A DNA stretch of 6,632 nt. Source: a virus (taxonomy: Duplodnaviria > Heunggongvirae > Uroviricota > Caudoviricetes). The stretch lies in IMG/VR virus record IMGVR_UViG_2693429508_000005, one strand, 5' to 3'. Below the pieces are notes generated by a model that was not told the DNA's origin, did not search any database, and was given only the letters and a program-made list of their open reading frames with translations. This document shows positions 1 through 6,632 of the stretch, in pieces. A program made the translations under genes and the position numbers. Each line of letters starts with the position of its first letter. Positions within the stretch are counted from its first letter, which is position 1.

Positions 1-606
1 GAAGGAGTGTCCGTTAAACTCAGGCTACCTCAGGATGCGGATAATGCGGCGGGAACGGCAGAACAGATGTTTACAGTGGCATTCAGCAGTGCCGGTAATG
101 CACTGGCGACATTCTGTACCACCGGTAAGCTGAATTTTAAATCCTTCACCTCTTCCCTGTTGTCAGATATGGCCAGAATTATGGCACAGATGGCCATGAT
201 GCAGGCGGTAAAGGGCGTCGGTTCTTTATTCGGCTTCACGACTAATGCTGATGGCGGTGTTTACCAGTCTGCTGATTTGAGTCGCTACAGTGGCACGGTG
301 GTTAACCGTCCGACGTTTTTTGCTTTTGCAAAAGGCGCGGGTGTGATGGGGGAAGCGGGACCTGAAGCCATTCTGCCACTGCGTCGCGGTGCTGATGGTA
401 AGCTGGGGGGTGTGGCGGATACTGGTGGTTCAGGCATGGTGATGTTTGCCCCGCAGTACAACATTGAGATCAATAACGATGGCACGAACGGGCAGATAGG
501 TCCGGCTGCCCTGAAGGTGGTTTATGACCTCGGGAAAAAAGCGGCCGCGGACTTTATGCAACAGCAGGCCCGTGATGGTGGCCGGTTAAGTGGAGCATAC
601 CGGTAA
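1..606 (+). CDS. H: Tail length tape-measure protein, C-terminal part (5'-partial; divergent allele H')
   Basis: Reading frame is open from the window start (the track's GTG at 7 is not the real start) and stops at TAA 604-606. The C-terminus (...NNDGTNGQIGPAALKVVYDLGKKAAADFMQQQARDGGRLSGAYR) is homologous but only about half identical to the lambda-type H C-terminus at 1455-1889 (...QNDGTNGLPGPQMMKAVYDMARKGARDEIQTQMRDGGLFSGGGR). The stop overlaps the start of an M homologue (TAATG), the synteny seen in lambda H-M. Confidence 0.7.
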   Translation, partial: EGVSVKLRLPQDADNAAGTAEQMFTVAFSSAGNALATFCTTGKLNFKSFTSSLLSDMARIMAQMAMMQAVKGVGSLFGFTTNADGGVYQSADLSRYSGTVVNRPTFFAFAKGAGVMGEAGPEAILPLRRGADGKLGGVADTGGSGMVMFAPQYNIEINNDGTNGQIGPAALKVVYDLGKKAAADFMQQQARDGGRLSGAYR

Positions 607-935
607 TGGAGACGTTTCACTGGAAAGTGCGCCCGGATATGAATGTGGTATCAGAGCCGAAAGTGGTGACAGTGAAGCTGGGCGATGGTTATGAACAGCG
701 TCGTGCGGCGGGACTGAATAACCAGTTGTCGACTTACAGCGTGACGATACGTGTTCGTAAAGGTGAACACCCATTTTTAAAAGCCTTTCTGGAACGGCAC
801 GGTGGCGTCCGCGCATTTCAGTGGACGCCACCTTATGACTGGAAGCCGATCAGGGTGGTTTGTCGTAAATGGTCGGCAAGCGTGGGGGCGTTGTGGGTAA
901 CCATAACGGCAGATTTTGAACAGGTCGTGGCATAG
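606..935 (+). CDS. M: Tail tip assembly protein M (divergent allele M')
   Basis: 109 aa, the same length as the lambda-like M at 1886-2215 and alignable end to end (shared WKV.P.M.V, GDGY.QR, AGLN..L.TYSVT, FLE.HGG, W.TPPY.W, ADFEQVV motifs), at roughly 60% identity by eye. Start overlaps the H' stop (TAATG). Confidence 0.85.
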   Translation: METFHWKVRPDMNVVSEPKVVTVKLGDGYEQRRAAGLNNQLSTYSVTIRVRKGEHPFLKAFLERHGGVRAFQWTPPYDWKPIRVVCRKWSASVGALWVTITADFEQVVA

Positions 936-944
936 GAGGCTCTG

Positions 945-1453
945 ATGCAGGATATTCCACAGGAAACACATCATGAGACGACACGCCTCACTCAGTCAGC
1001 CCAGGTGGTGCTCTGGGAAATCGATCTGACAGAGGTCGGTGGTGAACGTTATTTTTTCTGTAATGAGCAGAACGAAAAAGGTGAGCCGGTTACCTGGCAG
1101 GGGCGGCAGTATCAGGCATACCCCATTCAGGGGACGGGATTTGAACTGAACGGCAAGGGCAGTGCTGCCCGTCCGACACTGACGGTTTCTAACCTGCACG
1201 GAATGGTCACCGGGATGGCGGAAGACCTGCAGAGTCTGGTCGGCGGAACGGTGGTCAGGCGTAAGGTTTACGCCCGTTTTCTGGATGCGGTGAACTTCGT
1301 CAACGGAAACAGCGACGCCGATCCGGAACAGGAGGTGATCAGCCGCTGGCGCATCGAGCAGTGCAGCGAACTGAGCGCGGTCAGTGCCTCTTTTGTGCTG
1401 GCCACACCAACGGAGACGGATGGCGCGGTTTTCCCGGGGCGTATCATGCTGGC
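945..1453 (+). CDS. L: Tail tip protein L, N-terminal fragment (L', about 169 codons), fused in frame to an H C-terminal fragment
   Basis: AGGAGG-like RBS at about 935-940 precedes ATG 945. From about nt 1005 it is roughly 90% identical in nucleotides to the L gene at 2215-3070; the first ~20 codons diverge. Homology to L stops after ...GRIML at 1453, with an ambiguous base n at 1454. Confidence 0.7.
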
Positions 1454-1454
1454 N

Positions 1455-1889
1455 GGGGCTGTTGGTGGCGGCGCATCCGCGTCAGGTGGTACAGCCATTC
1501 AGGCCGCTGCGGCGAAATTCCATTTTGCAACTGGGGGATTTACGGGAACCGGCGGCAAATATGAGCCAGCGGGGATTGTTCACCGTGGTGAATTTGTCTT
1601 CACGAAGGAGGCAACCAGCCGGATTGGCGTGGGGAATCTCTACCGGCTGATGCGCGGCTATGCGGAAGGTGGTTATGTGGGCGGTGCCGGAAGTCCGGCG
1701 CAGATGCGGCGGGCTGAAGGCATTAATTTTAATCAGAACAATCACGTGGTGATTCAGAACGACGGTACGAATGGTCTGCCAGGTCCACAGATGATGAAGG
1801 CCGTGTATGACATGGCCCGCAAGGGTGCCCGTGATGAAATTCAGACACAGATGCGTGATGGTGGCCTGTTCTCCGGAGGTGGACGATGA
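1455..1889 (+). CDS. H: Tail tape-measure protein H, C-terminal fragment (lambda-type, about 144 codons), 3' part of the chimeric ORF 945-1889
   Basis: Ends ...QMRDGGLFSGGGR, matching the lambda gpH C-terminus as I recall it. Stop TGA 1887-1889 overlaps the M start ATG 1886 (ATGA), as in lambda H/M. Gly/Ala-rich segment typical of tape-measure C-termini. Confidence 0.7.
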   Translation, partial: GAVGGGASASGGTAIQAAAAKFHFATGGFTGTGGKYEPAGIVHRGEFVFTKEATSRIGVGNLYRLMRGYAEGGYVGGAGSPAQMRRAEGINFNQNNHVVIQNDGTNGLPGPQMMKAVYDMARKGARDEIQTQMRDGGLFSGGGR

Positions 1890-2215
1890 AAACCTTCCGC
1901 TGGAAAGTGAAACCCGGTATGGATGTGGCTTCGGCCCCTTCTGTAAGAAAGGTGCGCTTTGGTGATGGCTATTCCCAGCGAGCGCCTGCCGGGCTGAATG
2001 CCAACCTGAAAACGTACAGCGTGACGCTTTCTGTCCCCCGTGAGGAGGCCATGGTACTGGAGTCGTTTCTGGAAGAGCACGGGGGCTGGAAAGCCTTTCT
2101 GTGGACGCCGCCTTATGAGTGGCGGCAGATAAAGGTGACCTGCGCAAAATGGTCGTCGCGGGTCAGTATGCTGCGTGTTGAGTTCAGCGCAGAGTTTGAA
2201 CAGGTGGTGAACTGA
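1886..2215 (+). CDS. M: Tail tip assembly protein M (lambda-like)
   Basis: 109-aa ORF MKTFRWKVKPGMDVAS...SAEFEQVVN, essentially identical to lambda gpM as recalled. ATGA overlap with the upstream H stop, and its stop overlaps the L start at 2215. Confidence 0.92.
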   Translation: MKTFRWKVKPGMDVASAPSVRKVRFGDGYSQRAPAGLNANLKTYSVTLSVPREEAMVLESFLEEHGGWKAFLWTPPYEWRQIKVTCAKWSSRVSMLRVEFSAEFEQVVN

Positions 2216-3070
2216 TGCAGGATATCCGGCAGGAAACACTGAATGAATGCACCCGTGCGGAGCAGTCGGCCAGCGTGGTGCTCTGGGAAATCGATCTGAC
2301 AGAGGTCGGTGGAGAACGTTATTTTTTCTGTAATGAGCAGAACGAAAAAGGTGAGCCGGTTACCTGGCAGGGGCGGCAGTATCAGGCNNNNNNNNNNNNN
2401 NNNNNNNNNNNNNNNNNNNNNNNNNNNNNNNNNNNNNNNNNNNNNNNNNNNTCTGACAGAGGTCGGTGGAGAACGTTATTTTTTCTGTAATGAGCAGAAC
2501 GAAAAAGGTGAGCCGGTCACCTGGCAGGGGCGACAGTATCAGCCGTATCCCATTCAGGGGAGTGGTTTTGAACTGAATGGCAAAGGCACCAGTACGCGCC
2601 CCACGCTGATGGTTTCTAACCTGTACGGTATGGTCACCGGGATGGCGGAAGATCTACAGAGTCTGGTCGGCGGAACGGTGGTCCGGCGTAAGGTTTACGC
2701 CCGTTTTCTGGATGCGGTGAACTTCGTCAACGGAAACAGTGACGCCGATCCGGAGCAGGAGGTGATCAGCCGCTGGCGCATTGAGCAGTGCAGCGAACTG
2801 AGCGCGGTGAGTGCCTCTTTTGTACTGTCCACGCCGACGGAAACAGATGGCGCTGTTTTTCCGGGACGTATCATGCTGGCCAACACCTGCACCTGGACCT
2901 ATCGCGGCGATGAGTGCGGTTATCACGGTCCGGCGGTCGCGGATGAATATGACCAGCCAACGTCCGACATCACGAAGGATAAATGCAGCAAATGCCTGAG
3001 TGGCTGTAAGTTTCGCAATAACGTCGGCAACTTTGGCGGCTTCCTTTCCATTAACAAACTTTCGCAGTAA
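2215..3070 (+). CDS. L: Tail tip protein L (lambda-like), interrupted by an N-gap and a redundant 93-bp overlap; intact 232-codon gene if 2215-2385 is joined to 2543-3070
   Basis: N-terminal ORF 2215-2387 (MQDIRQETLNECTRAEQSASVVLWEIDLTEVGGERYFFCNEQNEKGEPVTWQGRQYQ) runs into the N-run. Sequence after the gap repeats the last 93 nt and continues in L frame to TAA 3068-3070. Joining 171 + 528 nt gives 699 nt, which is 232 aa plus stop. C-terminus carries a Cys cluster (CTWTYRGDECGYHG...KDKCSKCLSGC). Confidence 0.85.
2388..2451. other. Assembly gap (64 N)
   Basis: Continuous run of n from 2388 to 2451. Confidence 0.97.
2452..2544. repeat. 93-bp direct duplicate of 2295-2387 flanking the gap (unmerged contig overlap)
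   Basis: 2452-2544 (tctgacagaggtcggtggagaacg...cagtatcagcc) repeats 2295-2387 with 3 mismatches (T/C, G/A and a final G/C). Confidence 0.9.
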
Positions 3071-3075
3071 ATCCC

Positions 3076-3819
3076 ATGACAGAGACAGAATCAGCGATTC
3101 TGGCGCACGCCCGGCGATGTGCTCCAGCGGAGTCGTGCGGCTTCGTGGTAAGAACGCCGGAGGGGGAAAGATATTTCCCCTGCGTGAATATCTCCGGTGA
3201 GCCGGAGGCGTATTTCCGTATGTCGCCGGAAGACTGGCTGCAGGCAGAGATGCAGGGTGAGATTGTGGCACTGGTCCACAGCCACCCCGGTGGTCTGCCC
3301 TGGCTGAGTGAGGCCGACCGGCGGCTGCAGGTGCAGAGTGATTTGCCGTGGTGGCTGGTCTGCCGGGGGGCGATTCACAAGTTCCGCTGTGTGCCACATC
3401 TTACCGGGCGGCGCTTTGAGCACGGGGTGACGGACTGTTACACGCTGTTCCGGGATGCTTACCATCTGGCGGGGATTGAGATGCCGGATTTTCATCGTGA
3501 GGATGACTGGTGGCGTCACGGTCAGAATCTCTATCTGGATAATCTGGAGGCCACAGGGCTGTATCAGGTGCCGTTGTCAGCGGCGCAGCCGGGCGATGTG
3601 CTGCTGTGCTGTTTTGGTTCATCGGTGCCGAATCATGCCGCCATTTACTGTGGTGACGGCGAGCTGCTGCACCATATTCCTGAACAACTGAGCAAACGAG
3701 AGAGGTATACCGACAAATGGCAGCGACGCACACACTCCCTCTGGCGTCACCGGGCATGGCACGCATCTGCCTTTACGGGGATTTGCAACGATTTGGCCGC
3801 CGCATCGACCTTCGTGTGA
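3076..3819 (+). CDS. K: Tail tip assembly protein K (MPN/JAMM plus NlpC/P60-like), long form of 247 aa; the classical lambda-type start would be the in-frame ATG at 3220
   Basis: ORF MTETESAILAHARRCAPAESCGFVV... is open from the ATG 6 nt after the L stop. It contains the JAMM signature H-x-H-x7-S-x2-D (HSHPGGLPWLSEAD) and a Cys...His pair (GVTDCYTLF ... NHAAIY) compatible with an NlpC/P60 fold. The last 103 nt overlap I, as in lambda K/I. Confidence 0.85.
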   Translation: MTETESAILAHARRCAPAESCGFVVRTPEGERYFPCVNISGEPEAYFRMSPEDWLQAEMQGEIVALVHSHPGGLPWLSEADRRLQVQSDLPWWLVCRGAIHKFRCVPHLTGRRFEHGVTDCYTLFRDAYHLAGIEMPDFHREDDWWRHGQNLYLDNLEATGLYQVPLSAAQPGDVLLCCFGSSVPNHAAIYCGDGELLHHIPEQLSKRERYTDKWQRRTHSLWRHRAWHASAFTGICNDLAAASTFV

Positions 3820-4388
3820 AAACGGGTGCCGAAGCCATCCGGGCGATGGCCACACAGCTCCCTGCGTTTCGTCAGAAGCTGAGCGACGGCTGGTATCAGG
3901 TGCGTATTGCCGGGCAGGATGTTAGCACGTCCGGATTAACGGCGCAGTTACATGAGGCTCTGCCTGACGGCGCTGTGATTCATATTGTTCCCAGAGTCGC
4001 CGGGGCCAAGTCAGGTGGTGTATTCCAGATTGTCCTGGGAGCAGCCGCCATTGCCGGATCATTCTTTACCGCCGGAGCCACCCTTGCAGCATGGGGGGCT
4101 GCCATTGGTGCCGGTGGTATGACCGGCATTCTGTTTTCTCTCGGTGCCAGTATGGTGCTCGGCGGTGTGGCTCAGATGCTGGCACCGAAAGCCAGAACTC
4201 CCCGCACACAGACAACGGATAACGGTAAGCAGAACACCTATTTCTCCTCACTGGATAACATGGTTGCCCAGGGCAATGTTATGCCTGTTCTGTATGGTGA
4301 AATGCGCGTGGGGTCACGTGTGGTATCTCAGGAGATCAGCACGGCAGACGAAGGGGACGGTGGTCAGGTTGTGGTGATTGGTCGCTGA
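3717..4388 (+). CDS. I: Tail tip assembly protein I
   Basis: 223-aa ORF MAATHTLPLASPGMARICLYGDLQRFGRRIDLRVKTG...VVVIGR, essentially identical to lambda gpI as recalled. Overlaps the 3' end of K in a different frame. Contains a long Gly/Ala-rich hydrophobic segment. Confidence 0.92.
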   Translation: MAATHTLPLASPGMARICLYGDLQRFGRRIDLRVKTGAEAIRAMATQLPAFRQKLSDGWYQVRIAGQDVSTSGLTAQLHEALPDGAVIHIVPRVAGAKSGGVFQIVLGAAAIAGSFFTAGATLAAWGAAIGAGGMTGILFSLGASMVLGGVAQMLAPKARTPRTQTTDNGKQNTYFSSLDNMVAQGNVMPVLYGEMRVGSRVVSQEISTADEGDGGQVVVIGR

Positions 4389-4410
4389 TGCAAAATGTTT
4401 TATGTGAAAT

Positions 4411-4427
4411 CGCCTCCGGGCGGTTTT
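4411..4427 (+). terminator. Small GC hairpin followed by TTTT in the I-J intergenic spacer (possible weak terminator or attenuator)
   Basis: CGCC-TCCG-GGCG (4-bp stem, 4-nt loop) at 4411-4422, followed by GTTTT. Lies between the I stop (4386-4388) and the J RBS (GGAG at 4437-4440). Confidence 0.2.
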
Positions 4428-4448
4428 ATCGTTTATGGAGCATGACGA

Positions 4449-6632
4449 ATGGGTAAAGGCAGCAGTAAGGGGCATACCCCGCGCGAAGCGAAGGACAACC
4501 TGAAATCCACGCAGTTGCTGAGTGTGATTGATGCCATCAGCGAAGGGCCGGTTGAAGGTCCGGTGGATGGATTAAAAAGCGTGCTGCTGAACAGTACGCC
4601 GGTGCTGGACAGTGAGGGGAATACCAACATCTCCGGCGTCACGGTGGTGTTCCGGGCAGGTGAGCAGGAGCAGTCACCGCCGGAGGGATTTGAATCCTCC
4701 GGCTCCGAGACGGTGCTGGGTACGGAAGTGAAATATGACACGCCGATCACCCGGACCATCACGTCGGCAAACATTGACCGACTGCGTTTTACCTTCGGTG
4801 TACAGGCACTGGTGGAAACCACCTCAAAGGGAGACAGGAATCCGTCTGAAGTTCGCCTGCTGGTTCAGATACAGCGTAACGGTGGCTGGGTGACGGAAAA
4901 AGACATCACCATTAAGGGCAAAACCACCTCGCAGTATCTGGCCTCGGTGGTGGTGGATAACCTGCCGCCGCGCCCGTTTAATATCCGGATGCGCAGAATG
5001 ACGCCGGACAGCACCACAGACCAGCTGCAGAACAAAACGCTCTGGTCGTCATACACCGAAATCATCGATGTGAAACAGTGCTACCCGAACACGGCACTGG
5101 TCGGCGTACAGGTGGATTCGGAGCAGTTCGGCAGCCAGCAGGTGAGCCGTAATTATCATCTTCGCGGGCGCATTCTGCAGGTGCCGTCGAACTATAATCC
5201 GCAGACGCGGCAATACAGCGGTATCTGGGACGGAACGTTAAAACCGGCATACAGCAACAACATGGCCTGGTGTCTGTGGGATATGCTGACCCATCCGCGC
5301 TATGGCATGGGGAAACGTCTTGGTGCGGCAGATGTGGATAAATGGGCGCTGTATGTCATCGGCCAGTACTGTGACCAGTCGGTGCCGGACGGCTTTGGCA
5401 GCACGGAGCCGCGCATCACCTGTAATGCCTGGCTGACCACACAGCGCAAGGCGTGGGATGTGCTCAGTGATTTCTGCTCGGCGATGCGCTGTATGCCGGT
5501 ATGGAACGGGCAGACGCTGACGTTCGTGCAGGACCGACAGTCGGATAAGGTGTGGGCCTATAACCGCAGTAATGTGGTGATGCCGGATGATGGCGCGCCG
5601 TTCCGCTACAGTTTCAGCGCCCTGAAAGACCGCCATAATGCCGTTGAGGTGAACTGGATTGACCCGGATAACGGCTGGGAGACGGCGACAGAGCTTGTGG
5701 AGGATACGCAGGCCATTGTCCGTTACGGTCGTAACGTCACGAAGATGGATGCCTTTGGCTGTACCAGCCGGGGGCAGGCACACCGAGCCGGGCTGTGGCT
5801 GATTAAAACGGAACTGCTGGAGACGCAGACCGTGGATTTCAGCGTGGGTGCTGAAGGGCTTCGTCATGTACCGGGCGATGTCATTGAAATCTGCGATGAT
5901 GACTATGCCGGTATCCGCACCGGCGGGCGCGTGCTGGCGGTGAACAGCCAGACCCGGACGCTGACGCTCGACCGTGAAATCACGCTGCCATCCTCCGGCA
6001 CCACGCTGATAAGCCTGGTTGACGGGCAGGGGAATCCGGTCAGCGTGGAGGTCCAGTCCGTCACCGACGGCGTGAAGGTAAAAGTGAGCCGTGTTCCTGA
6101 CGGTGTTGCTGAATACAGCGTGTGGGGGCTGAAGCTGCCGACGCTGCACCAGCGATTGTTCCGCTGCGTGAGTATCCGTGAGAACGACGACGGCACGTAT
6201 GCCATCACCGCCGTGCAGCATGTGCCGGAAAAAGAAGCCATCGTGGATAACGGGGCGCACTTTGACGGCGACCAGAGCGGCACGGTGAATGGTGTCACGC
6301 CGCCAGCGGTGCAGCACCTGACTGCCGAAGTCACCGCAGACAGCGGGGAATATCAGGTGCTGGCGCGCTGGGACACGCCGAAGGTGGTGAAGGGCGTGAG
6401 CTTCCTGCTCCGTCTGACCGTAACAGCGGATGACGGCAGTGAGCGGCTGGTCAGCACGGCCCGGACGACGGAAACCACTTACCGCTTCACACAACTGGCG
6501 CTGGGGAACTACAGGCTGACAGTCCGGGCAGTAAATGCGTGGGGGCAGCAGGGCGATCCGGCGTCGGTATCGTTCCGGATTGCCGCACCGGCAGCGCTGT
6601 CGCGGATTGAGCTGACGCCGGGCTATTTTCAG
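4449..6632 (+). CDS. J: Tail tip attachment / host specificity protein J, N-terminal 728 codons (3'-partial, runs off the window)
   Basis: ATG 4449 preceded by GGAG 9-12 nt upstream. Open frame to the window end, MGKGSSKGHTPREAKDNLKSTQLLSVIDAISEGPVEGPVDGLKSVLLNSTPVLD..., highly similar to lambda gpJ as recalled. Not in the ORF track because it has no stop within the window. Confidence 0.93.
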   Translation, partial: MGKGSSKGHTPREAKDNLKSTQLLSVIDAISEGPVEGPVDGLKSVLLNSTPVLDSEGNTNISGVTVVFRAGEQEQSPPEGFESSGSETVLGTEVKYDTPITRTITSANIDRLRFTFGVQALVETTSKGDRNPSEVRLLVQIQRNGGWVTEKDITIKGKTTSQYLASVVVDNLPPRPFNIRMRRMTPDSTTDQLQNKTLWSSYTEIIDVKQCYPNTALVGVQVDSEQFGSQQVSRNYHLRGRILQVPSNYNPQTRQYSGIWDGTLKPAYSNNMAWCLWDMLTHPRYGMGKRLGAADVDKWALYVIGQYCDQSVPDGFGSTEPRITCNAWLTTQRKAWDVLSDFCSAMRCMPVWNGQTLTFVQDRQSDKVWAYNRSNVVMPDDGAPFRYSFSALKDRHNAVEVNWIDPDNGWETATELVEDTQAIVRYGRNVTKMDAFGCTSRGQAHRAGLWLIKTELLETQTVDFSVGAEGLRHVPGDVIEICDDDYAGIRTGGRVLAVNSQTRTLTLDREITLPSSGTTLISLVDGQGNPVSVEVQSVTDGVKVKVSRVPDGVAEYSVWGLKLPTLHQRLFRCVSIRENDDGTYAITAVQHVPEKEAIVDNGAHFDGDQSGTVNGVTPPAVQHLTAEVTADSGEYQVLARWDTPKVVKGVSFLLRLTVTADDGSERLVSTARTTETTYRFTQLALGNYRLTVRAVNAWGQQGDPASVSFRIAAPAALSRIELTPGYFQ

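What the first reader, a model, noticed from the sequence alone, without database searches (positions are those of the whole stretch)
3076..3222. K reads through as a 247-aa ORF; the classical shorter start would leave the JAMM motif with almost no upstream sequence
The K frame is open from ATG 3076, 6 nt after the L stop, suggesting translational coupling, although there is no obvious SD there. An in-frame ATG at 3220 has a GGAGG 11 nt upstream and corresponds, as I recall it, to the 199-aa gpK start in the reference lambda annotation. The HSHPGG...SEAD JAMM signature sits only about 20 residues after the 3220 start, whereas MPN/JAMM domains normally have about 50 residues including a conserved Glu before the H-x-H. 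The 48 upstream codons (MTETESAILAHARRCAPAESCGFVVRTPEGERYFPCVNISGEPEAYFR) are therefore probably part of the protein.
Basis: partly seen in the sequence, partly recalled or inferred. Interest (0 to 1): 0.4.

Follow-up and report, generated by a model that had tools for sequence, protein, structure and literature searches.

The report
Lambda tail gene K's true start
The lambda-type tail assembly gene K here encodes a 247-residue two-domain peptidase starting right after gene L; the textbook 199-residue version is an annotation artefact, most likely caused by one missing G in the 1982 lambda reference sequence, and modern annotation already uses the long form.

Summary
ATG 3076 lies 5 nt after the L stop and has no Shine-Dalgarno sequence. 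ATG 3220 has GGAGG 11 nt upstream and corresponds to the 199-aa K start of NC_001416.

- Only the 247-aa form passes Pfam Prok-JAB (52.6 bits, against 22.9 for the 199-aa form; cut-off 25).
- Codons 1-48 carry the near-invariant P17, catalytic E19, C21, G22 and N38.
- 96 of 98 homologues at 34-60% identity align from residue 15 or earlier. Met49 is not conserved (consensus Ile).
- dN/dS for codons 2-48 is 0.08-0.35.
- All 80 IMG/VR relatives keep the ORF intact.
- An AlphaFold model (pLDDT 96.8) places residues 1-48 as the first helix and two strands of a JAMM fold.

One G is absent 9 nt before ATG 14276. Every independently sequenced lambda checked has that G, including 14 de novo assembled lambda contaminant contigs, so the 199-aa K is most likely a reference error.

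PGAP already annotates the 247-aa form, and the JAB+NlpC/P60 architecture was published in 2006. The finding is correct but known. The useful by-product is a correction to the lambda reference record and to work that still uses the 199-aa protein.

The parts
3068..3070 (+). Stop codon (TAA) of gene L (minor tail protein L)
   Evidence: The ORF ending at 3070 matches lambda L. PGAP annotates the same arrangement in prophages.
3071..3075 (+). 5-nt L-K spacer (ATCCC) with no Shine-Dalgarno sequence; presumed site of termination-reinitiation coupling
   Evidence: Anti-SD duplex dG is +0.6 kcal/mol. Close relatives keep a 4-5 nt spacer. A Citrobacter homologue has an ATG overlapping the L stop (TGATG) and a second ATG 12 nt downstream.
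3076..3819 (+). Gene K, full length: 247 codons plus TGA
   Evidence: PGAP and other annotators call the same 744-nt CDS.
3076..3219 (+). Codons 1-48, the segment missing from the 199-aa annotation. It encodes helix 1 and strands 1-2 of the JAMM/MPN+ domain, including the catalytic Glu19 (codon 3130-3132).
   Evidence: Pfam gives 24.1 bits for this segment alone, on profile positions 3-41. PDB 2kks aligns from residue 7. P17, E19, C21, G22, N38 and F47 are at least 90% conserved. dN/dS is 0.08-0.35. pLDDT is 97-98.
3204..3208 (+). GGAGG inside the coding sequence (codons for Pro43-Glu44-Ala45). It acts as an SD-like decoy 11 nt before ATG 3220.
   Evidence: Duplex dG is -9.5. It overlaps the conserved Pro43 codon.
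3209..3210 (+). Site of the G that is absent from J02459/NC_001416 (lambda 14266/14267): GGAGGC[G]TATTTCC
   Evidence: Alignment A1.
3220..3222 (+). Internal Met49 codon, the start of the classical 199-aa K annotation. It is not a conserved start.
   Evidence: The codon is ATT (Ile) in the O111 prophage and in E. albertii, ATA or CTG in 2 of 80 IMG/VR loci, and the consensus is Ile in 59 divergent homologues.
3277..3318 (+). JAMM metal-binding motif H68-S-H70-x7-S78-x2-D81
   Evidence: H68, H70 and D81 are invariant; S69 and S78 are at least 90% conserved.
3406..3747 (+). NlpC/P60 (C40) cysteine peptidase domain, residues 111-224. Candidate catalytic residues are C121, H187 and H199.
   Evidence: Pfam PF00877 scores 49.2 bits with full profile coverage. 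Foldseek hits include MepS and Acd33800. Conservation is shown.
3756..4388 (+). Gene I (ubiquitin-like tail assembly protein), the probable substrate of K. It overlaps the 3' end of K.
   Evidence: Pfam PF06805 scores 95 bits. PGAP places the I start at the position equivalent to window 3756. Iyer et al. 2006 (PMC1779556) and a 2025 conference summary (PMC12908700) link K and I functionally.

Best explanation
Gene K of this lambda-type tail cluster is translated from ATG 3076 into a 247-residue protein with two peptidase domains. Residues about 1-105 form a JAMM/MPN+ (Prok-JAB) zinc isopeptidase domain with the motif E19...H68-S-H70-x7-S78-x2-D81. Residues 111-224 form an NlpC/P60 cysteine peptidase domain.

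The start has no SD and lies 5 nt after the L stop. Initiation is therefore most likely coupled to termination of L translation; this step is inferred. The internal ATG 3220 with its GGAGG is a coding-sequence coincidence, because the GGAGG encodes the conserved Pro-Glu-Ala. It misleads gene callers.

The classical 199-aa gpK exists because the deposited 1982 lambda sequence lacks one G 9 nt upstream of that ATG, which puts the true N-terminus out of frame. Other lambda sequences carry the G, so real lambda also encodes the 247-aa protein.

By function, the JAMM domain most likely clips the ubiquitin-like N-terminal domain off the product of the next gene, I, during tail-tip assembly. This was predicted in 2006 and reported orally in 2025. 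It was not tested here.
For: Shown here:
- Pfam Prok-JAB scores 52.6 bits over profile positions 4-103 for the 247-aa form, against 22.9 bits (below the cut-off of 25) for the 199-aa form.
- PHROG 30 scores 548 against 443 bits, and phrog_2635 and phrog_7305 match from residue 1.
- A weak NCBIfam desampylase match to residues 3-114 is lost in the short form.
- PDB 2kks aligns from residue 7.
- 96 of 98 homologues at 34-60% identity align from query residue 15 or earlier. Their median start offset is 2 and their median length 244.
- In 59 homologues G22 and N38 are invariant and P17, E19, C21 and F47 are at least 90% conserved, while Met49 is not conserved.
- dN/dS for codons 2-48 is 0.08, 0.10, 0.32 and 0.35 in the four informative comparisons, similar to the rest of the gene. 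There are 13 synonymous against 4-5 nonsynonymous changes, p about 1e-5.
- 80 of 80 IMG/VR loci, 74 of them distinct CDS, have an intact 247-codon ORF.
- The AlphaFold model has pLDDT 96.8 and pTM 0.91, with residues 1-48 at pLDDT 97-98. Foldseek matches PfJAMM1 5ld9/5lda at TM 0.68, then AMSH, CSN5 and Rpn11, plus NlpC/P60 enzymes.

Reference error:
- The lambda reference lacks one G, so ATG 14133 is out of frame with K.
- DE3, KT232076, LC730321, PV340536 and lambda imm434 have the G.
- 14 de novo assembled lambda contaminant contigs are identical to J02459 over up to 3741 nt except for this G.
- No complete E. coli genome matches the reference version perfectly.
- IMG/VR holds 0 copies of the G-less 31-mer and at least 120 of the G-containing 32-mer.

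Annotation: PGAP, CPT (phage 434) and others already annotate the 744-nt CDS.

From the literature: the JAB+NlpC/P60 architecture and predicted cleavage of gpI (PMC1779556); a report that gpK cleaves the Ubl domain of gpI (PMC12908700).
Against: - There is no direct protein or ribosome evidence for the start site.
- ATG 3076 has no SD, whereas ATG 3220 has a strong one with a long but usable 11-nt spacer. Some internal initiation cannot be excluded.
- Two database records, OR974322 (which carries Sam7) and OR474059 (unverified), share the G-less version. They may be reference-guided assemblies, but I could not prove that.
- The contaminant contigs could not be typed as cI857 Sam7, because only 3.7 kb of each was held.
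Confidence: 0.92

Rival explanations
1. Two products are made. The full-length 247-aa K starts at ATG 3076, and a nested 199-aa isoform starts at the SD-bearing ATG 3220. The short isoform would be an NlpC/P60 peptidase with a crippled JAB remnant and a role of its own, by analogy with the nested lambda C/Nu3 genes.
For: GGAGG with an 11-nt spacer gives the best anti-SD duplex of all in-frame starts (dG -9.5). ATG49 is present in 78 of 80 close relatives. Iyer et al. note phages whose K carries only the NlpC/P60 domain.
Against: The internal Met is Ile or Leu in the O111 and E. albertii homologues, and the consensus is Ile in 59 divergent homologues. The GGAGG is explained by the conserved Pro-Glu codons. 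The short product would lack helix 1, strands 1-2 and the catalytic Glu of a compact fold, so its first 55 or so residues would probably be unfolded. Conservation among relatives at 97% identity says little.
Confidence: 0.1
2. The classical annotation is right for lambda itself. The sequenced strain really lacks the G, gpK is the 199-aa protein from ATG 14276, and the JAB N-terminus is dispensable, at least in the laboratory.
For: J02459/NC_001416 and two further records lack the G, and one of those carries the Sam7 mutation that is not in J02459. The internal start has a good SD.
Against: 14 de novo assembled lambda contaminant contigs from unrelated genome projects are identical to the reference except for this G. 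All other lambda laboratory derivatives checked have the G. The G-less version occurs nowhere in 5,426 E. coli genomes or in IMG/VR. In any case this rival concerns only one strain, not the window, where the frame is open.
Confidence: 0.07
3. Codons 1-48 are an untranslated or separately translated leader, and their conservation reflects a nucleic-acid element rather than protein.
For: None was found beyond the lack of an SD at 3076.
Against: Substitutions are mostly synonymous. The amino-acid pattern matches the JAMM family down to 33% identity, including the catalytic Glu. The structure model needs these residues.
Confidence: 0.01

Closest known systems
Lambda gpK / 'TAPK' tail assembly protein family (JAB + NlpC/P60), as described by Iyer, Burroughs and Aravind 2006 (PMC1779556) and annotated by PGAP as a 247-aa 'C40 family peptidase'
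   Same: The window protein is 98% identical to widespread 247-aa E. coli prophage proteins. Its frame-corrected lambda counterpart differs at 7 of 247 residues. Gene order is L-K-I-J, with the same two domains and the same start position as PGAP uses.
   Different: Nothing of substance. It differs only from the 199-aa entry of the lambda reference record (NC_001416 NP_040598), which lacks residues 1-48.
Archaeal and bacterial stand-alone JAMM/MPN+ enzymes (P. furiosus JAMM1 5ld9/5lda, Haloferax desampylase, DSY2949 2kks)
   Same: Same fold (Foldseek TM 0.68, rmsd 2.6-2.7 A over about 110 residues). The E...HxH...S..D motif is complete. These enzymes cleave ubiquitin-like proteins, and K has a ubiquitin-like partner encoded next door.
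   Different: In K the domain is fused to an NlpC/P60 peptidase and works in virion assembly. Sequence identity is only 20-26%, and the NCBIfam desampylase model scores 29 bits against a cut-off of 130, so K is not an equivalog.
NlpC/P60 (C40) peptidoglycan endopeptidases such as MepS/Spr and C. difficile Acd autolysins
   Same: The fold and the Cys-His-His catalytic pattern match (C121, H187, H199).
   Different: No signal peptide or cell-wall-binding domain was found. gpK was not detected in virions (PMC10721106), so a role in processing tail proteins is as plausible as cell-wall cleavage.

Membership tests
JAMM/MPN+ metalloprotease (Pfam Prok-JAB PF14464) | Profile match above the curated gathering score | tested here: met
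   The 247-aa form scores 52.6 bits against a cut-off of 25, on profile positions 4-103 of 114. The 199-aa form fails at 22.9 bits.
JAMM/MPN+ metalloprotease (Pfam Prok-JAB PF14464) | Complete catalytic motif E-x(n)-H-S/T-H-x7-S-x2-D | tested here: met
   E19, H68, S69, H70, S78 and D81 are all present, and each is invariant or at least 90% conserved in 59 homologues. E19 lies in the disputed 48 codons.
JAMM/MPN+ metalloprotease (Pfam Prok-JAB PF14464) | MPN fold, with an N-terminal helix and two strands preceding the HxH strand | tested here: met
   The AlphaFold model has pLDDT 96.8 with H3-15, E21-27, E30-36, H51-60 and E62-69. Foldseek finds 5ld9 at TM 0.68, and also 2kks, AMSH, CSN5 and Rpn11.
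JAMM/MPN+ metalloprotease (Pfam Prok-JAB PF14464) | Zinc binding and isopeptidase or peptidase activity on a ubiquitin-like substrate | not testable with these tools
   The only evidence is second-hand: the 2006 prediction (PMC1779556) and a conference summary that gpK cleaves the Ubl domain of gpI (PMC12908700).
NlpC/P60 (C40) peptidase (PF00877) | Profile match above the gathering score, and a conserved Cys-His-polar triad | tested here: met
   49.2 bits against a cut-off of 23, on profile positions 1-105 of 105. C121, H187, H199 and H200 are at least 90% conserved. Foldseek finds MepS and Acd33800.
Lambda-type tail tip assembly cluster (L-K-I-J) | Gene order: L (PF05100) upstream; I (PF06805, ubiquitin-like) and J downstream | tested here: met
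   Window ORFs, a 96% match to lambda 13510-17688, PF06805 in the next gene and annotated neighbours.
Translationally coupled gene pair (termination-reinitiation) | Start codon within a few nucleotides of the upstream stop and no SD of its own | tested here: met
   The spacer is 5 nt and the anti-SD duplex dG is +0.6. Spacers are 4-11 nt in most relatives examined, and an ATG overlaps the L stop in one.
Translationally coupled gene pair (termination-reinitiation) | K translation depends on L translation | not testable with these tools
   This needs polarity experiments, for example an L nonsense mutation that reduces K expression.

The most novel reading that the evidence does not exclude
The SD-bearing internal ATG (3220) is also used, so that lambda-like phages make a second, nested K product of 199 aa alongside the 247-aa enzyme. 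That product would consist essentially of the NlpC/P60 domain and have a separate role in tail assembly or infection.
Probability: 0.08. Interest if true: 0.45.

Novelty: already known. Interest (0 to 1): 0.25.

Why it matters
The biology is not new. K-family proteins with a complete JAB domain fused to NlpC/P60 were described in 2006, and NCBI's pipeline annotates the 247-aa form in thousands of prophages.

What matters is practical. The canonical lambda record (J02459/NC_001416) carries a K protein that lacks the catalytic glutamate of its deubiquitinase-like domain. A 2020 review that analysed the 199-aa protein found only the peptidase domain at residues 52-182 (PMC7291167). Public protein sets also hold thousands of 199-aa calls.

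The evidence here points to a single missing G in the deposited lambda sequence as the cause. Anyone cloning, modelling or mutating lambda K from the reference record would therefore work with a truncated, probably inactive JAB domain. Correcting the record would help current work on how gpK processes the ubiquitin-like gpI.

Tried and rejected
- Single-sequence AlphaFold gave pLDDT 34, which is useless. It was replaced by a run with a 59-sequence alignment.
- The search for related loci with the very diverse alignment A2 failed because no stretch was conserved enough. I used a closer alignment, A3, instead.
- Literature searches for an explicit report of the K start or frameshift error found nothing. 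The lambda ribosome-profiling paper (PNAS 2013) and the Casjens and Hendrix 2015 review are not held. I therefore cannot say that the error has never been reported.
- I considered that the 199-aa database clusters might be naturally truncated genes. This was rejected: their DNA has the open upstream frame with the intact N-terminus.
- I considered that E. coli ECMA0423 loci L131 and L132, which have broken K frames, might be counter-examples. This was rejected: the assembly has dozens of indels relative to lambda across the whole locus, so it is an assembly-quality problem.

Full report
**1. What is in the sequence**

The window is a lambda-type tail gene region. Bases 2453-6632 match lambda 13510-17688 at 96% identity.

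- Gene L ends with TAA at 3068-3070.
- The K frame has an in-frame TAA at 3052-3054. Its first start codon is ATG 3076, and it runs to TGA 3817-3819, which is 247 codons.
- ATG 3076 lies 5 nt after the L stop and has no Shine-Dalgarno sequence. The best duplex with the 16S rRNA 3' end is +0.6 kcal/mol.
- An in-frame ATG at 3220 has GGAGG at 3204-3208, 11 nt upstream (-9.5 kcal/mol).
- By alignment, ATG 3220 is the K start of J02459/NC_001416 (14276..14875, 199 aa).
- H68-S-H70 lies 20 residues after Met49.

**2. Are codons 1-48 protein-coding and part of K?**

Domain models:
- The 247-aa form matches Pfam Prok-JAB (PF14464) over profile positions 4-103 of 114 at 52.6 bits, against a cut-off of 25.
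- The 199-aa form matches only positions 63-103 at 22.9 bits, below the cut-off.
- The 48 residues alone score 24.1 bits on positions 3-41.
- PHROG 30 gains 105 bits with the extension, and phrog_2635 and phrog_7305 match from residue 1.
- A weak match to the archaeal desampylase model covers residues 3-114 and disappears in the short form.
- The solved JAMM protein 2kks aligns from residue 7: AILAHARRCAPAESCGFVV against EMLAHARQALPNEACGLLGG.

Distant homologues:
- An exhaustive HMMER search of 1.84 billion representatives found 2776 relatives.
- 98 of the listed hits are divergent, at 34-60% identity and at least 200 aa long. Of these, 96 align from query residue 15 or earlier.
- Their median offset between target and query start is 2 residues, and their median length is 244.
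- In an alignment of 59 of them, G22 and N38 are invariant and P17, E19, C21 and F47 are at least 90% conserved. Met49 is not conserved; the consensus is Ile.
- E19 completes the canonical JAMM motif E-x(n)-H-S-H-x7-S-x2-D (E19, H68, S69, H70, S78, D81). The 199-aa form would lack the catalytic glutamate.

Selection and integrity:
- Nei-Gojobori dN/dS for codons 2-48 is 0.08 (O111 prophage), 0.10 (E. albertii), 0.32 and 0.35 (Citrobacter). The rest of the gene gives 0.13-0.18.
- The two closer pairs show 13 synonymous against 4-5 nonsynonymous changes (binomial p about 1e-5).
- All 80 IMG/VR relatives, 74 of them distinct CDS, have an intact 247-codon ORF with no stop or frameshift in codons 1-48.

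Structure:
- With the 59-sequence alignment, AlphaFold gives mean pLDDT 96.8 and pTM 0.91.
- Residues 1-48 score pLDDT 97-98 and form helix 3-15 and strands 21-27 and 30-36.
- Foldseek against the PDB returns P. furiosus JAMM1, alone and bound to the ubiquitin-like SAMP2 (5ld9/5lda, target TM 0.68, rmsd 2.6-2.7 A). It also returns 2kks, AMSH, CSN5 and Rpn11 for the N-terminal half, and MepS and Acd33800 (NlpC/P60) for the C-terminal half.

**3. Why the reference says 199 aa**

Translating lambda 14132-14875 from NC_001416 does not give the long protein. The alignment shows that the reference lacks one G: GGAGGC-TATTTCC against GGAGGCGTATTTCC in all six other sequences. As a result, ATG 14133 opens a 76-codon ORF that leaves the K frame after residue 45.

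- Among phage records, only J02459, NC_001416, OR474059 (flagged unverified) and OR974322 share the gap.
- DE3, KT232076, LC730321, PV340536, lambda imm434, 434 and 2B8 have the G.
- OR974322 carries the Sam7 base that J02459 does not, so it is not a plain copy of the reference. It may still be a reference-guided consensus.
- The genome-contig scan happened to retrieve lambda DNA contaminating assemblies of unrelated organisms, among them Neobacillus, two Pseudomonas, Shewanella, Chromatium, Paenibacillus, Bradyrhizobium and Leeuwenhoekiella. Several are contigs of about 48.4-48.5 kb at roughly 1x coverage, built by de novo assemblers.
- Thirteen of these contigs are identical to J02459 over up to 3741 nt except for one extra G at 14267. 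A fourteenth has that G and two further substitutions.
- No complete E. coli genome matches lambda 14100-14400 at 100%. The best hits are all 301 of 302, with the extra base.
- IMG/VR holds 0 copies of the G-less 31-mer and at least 120 of the G-containing 32-mer.

I conclude, with about 85% confidence, that the deposited lambda sequence has a one-base error here. The choice of ATG 14276 would then have been forced by it. I found no paper stating this, but several key lambda papers are not in the searchable library.

**4. State of annotation and literature**

- PGAP annotates the 744-nt CDS as 'C40 family peptidase' in E. coli prophages sampled across the identity range and in RefSeq phage 2B8.
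- The 434 record and a 2025 lambda record also use the long form.
- Other records, including DE3 and lambda imm434, keep the 199-aa start even though their frame is open upstream.
- Public protein sets hold both 247-aa and 199-aa clusters, each with thousands of members. The DNA behind two 199-aa clusters has the intact upstream frame, so those are gene-caller choices of the SD-bearing ATG.
- Iyer, Burroughs and Aravind (2006, PMC1779556) described K-family proteins as JAB plus NlpC/P60, next to the ubiquitin-like protein I. They predicted that the JAB domain cleaves I.
- A 2025 conference summary reports that the Davidson laboratory showed gpK cleaving the ubiquitin-like domain from gpI (PMC12908700).
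- A 2020 review that analysed the 199-aa sequence found only the peptidase domain, at residues 52-182 of 199 (PMC7291167).
- Cryo-EM and mass-spectrometry studies do not find gpK in virions (PMC10721106, PMC12617516).

**5. Mechanism**

Shown: K is one ORF of 247 codons encoding a complete JAMM domain fused to an NlpC/P60 domain.

Inferred: translation starts at ATG 3076 by coupling to termination of L. The spacer is 4-11 nt in most relatives examined, an ATG overlaps the L stop in one Citrobacter homologue, and no SD is present.

[quoted passage not shown] The role of the NlpC/P60 domain is open.

The GGAGG before ATG 3220 encodes the conserved Pro43-Glu44-Ala45. The ATG is replaced by ATT, ATA or CTG in some relatives and by Ile in most distant ones. 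A conserved internal start is therefore unlikely, though low-level internal initiation cannot be excluded.

**6. Verdict**

The finding is correct and the reasoning was sound, but the conclusion is already embodied in current annotation and in the 2006 domain analysis. Novelty: already known. Interest is low to moderate. Its value is the explanation for the discrepancy, a probable single-base error in the lambda reference, and the practical warning that the reference K protein lacks its catalytic glutamate.

Noticed in passing
window 1-3075 (N at 1454; N run 2388-2451): The window is a scaffold of three lambdoid pieces whose lambda coordinates overlap: 468-1453 is about lambda 12965-13937 (76% identity), 1450-2385 is about 12665-13599 (93%), and 2453-6632 is about 13510-17688 (96%). 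The H'-M-L' unit therefore appears twice, and the 314-aa 'ORF' at 945-1889 is an L/H chimera read across an N. This looks like mis-scaffolded contigs from a genome with several lambdoid prophages. The K region lies well inside the third, contiguous piece.
   Followed up: partly
window 3717-3819 (K/I overlap); lambda 14773: The start of gene I is also inconsistent between annotations. The lambda reference uses the ATG equivalent to window 3717 (223 aa), PGAP uses the ATG at 3756 (210 aa here), and a review cites 190 residues. Pfam PF06805 (profile positions 2-83) begins at residue 14 of the 223-aa form, which is residue 1 of the 210-aa form. The 190-aa form (GTG 3816) loses profile positions 2-25. 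The 3756 start fits the ubiquitin-like domain best, so the reference I may be 13 codons too long.
   Followed up: partly
L099, L101-L110, L119, L120, L122 (genome contigs): Genome assemblies of unrelated organisms contain lambda DNA, several as contigs of about 48.4-48.5 kb at roughly 1x coverage. The organisms include Neobacillus, Pseudomonas, Shewanella, Chromatium, Paenibacillus, Bradyrhizobium, Leeuwenhoekiella, Oceanobacillus, Kitasatospora and Enterococcus. This is laboratory contamination. It proved useful here as independent resequencing of lambda.
   Followed up: yes
lambda J02459 14133-14363 (locus L016): As deposited, the lambda reference contains an unannotated 76-codon ORF starting at ATG 14133. 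Its first 45 residues are the true N-terminus of K, and the rest is out-of-frame sequence created by the missing G.
   Followed up: yes
P0059, P0060, P0061, P0070 (199 aa); loci L135, L136: Public protein collections hold clusters of 199-aa K proteins with thousands of members. They were called from DNA whose upstream frame is open and encodes the intact N-terminus. This is a systematic gene-caller error caused by the internal GGAGG-ATG.
   Followed up: yes
P0024, P0031, P0039, P0042, P0047 (L-K) and P0015, P0032, P0086, P0116 (K-I): Some database proteins fuse L (PF05100) to K, or K to I (PF06805). With a 5-nt L-K spacer and overlapping K/I frames, single-base indels or assembly errors would create such fusions. 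Iyer et al. 2006 mention fusions as possibly real.
   Followed up: no
L131, L132 (E. coli ECMA0423, CP178302): Both K copies in this 'complete' genome have broken frames and dozens of indels relative to lambda across the whole locus. This is probably uncorrected long-read error rather than pseudogenes.
   Followed up: partly
LC730321 versus J02459 (L014 versus L016): Lambda_AGU differs from the reference at 15 positions. They include the K-site G, a 1-nt deletion at 138 and an extra C at 20833. The extra C lies just before the end of orf-401 (19650-20855). From memory, this is near the side-tail-fibre (stf) frameshift that separates laboratory lambda from Ur-lambda.
   Followed up: no
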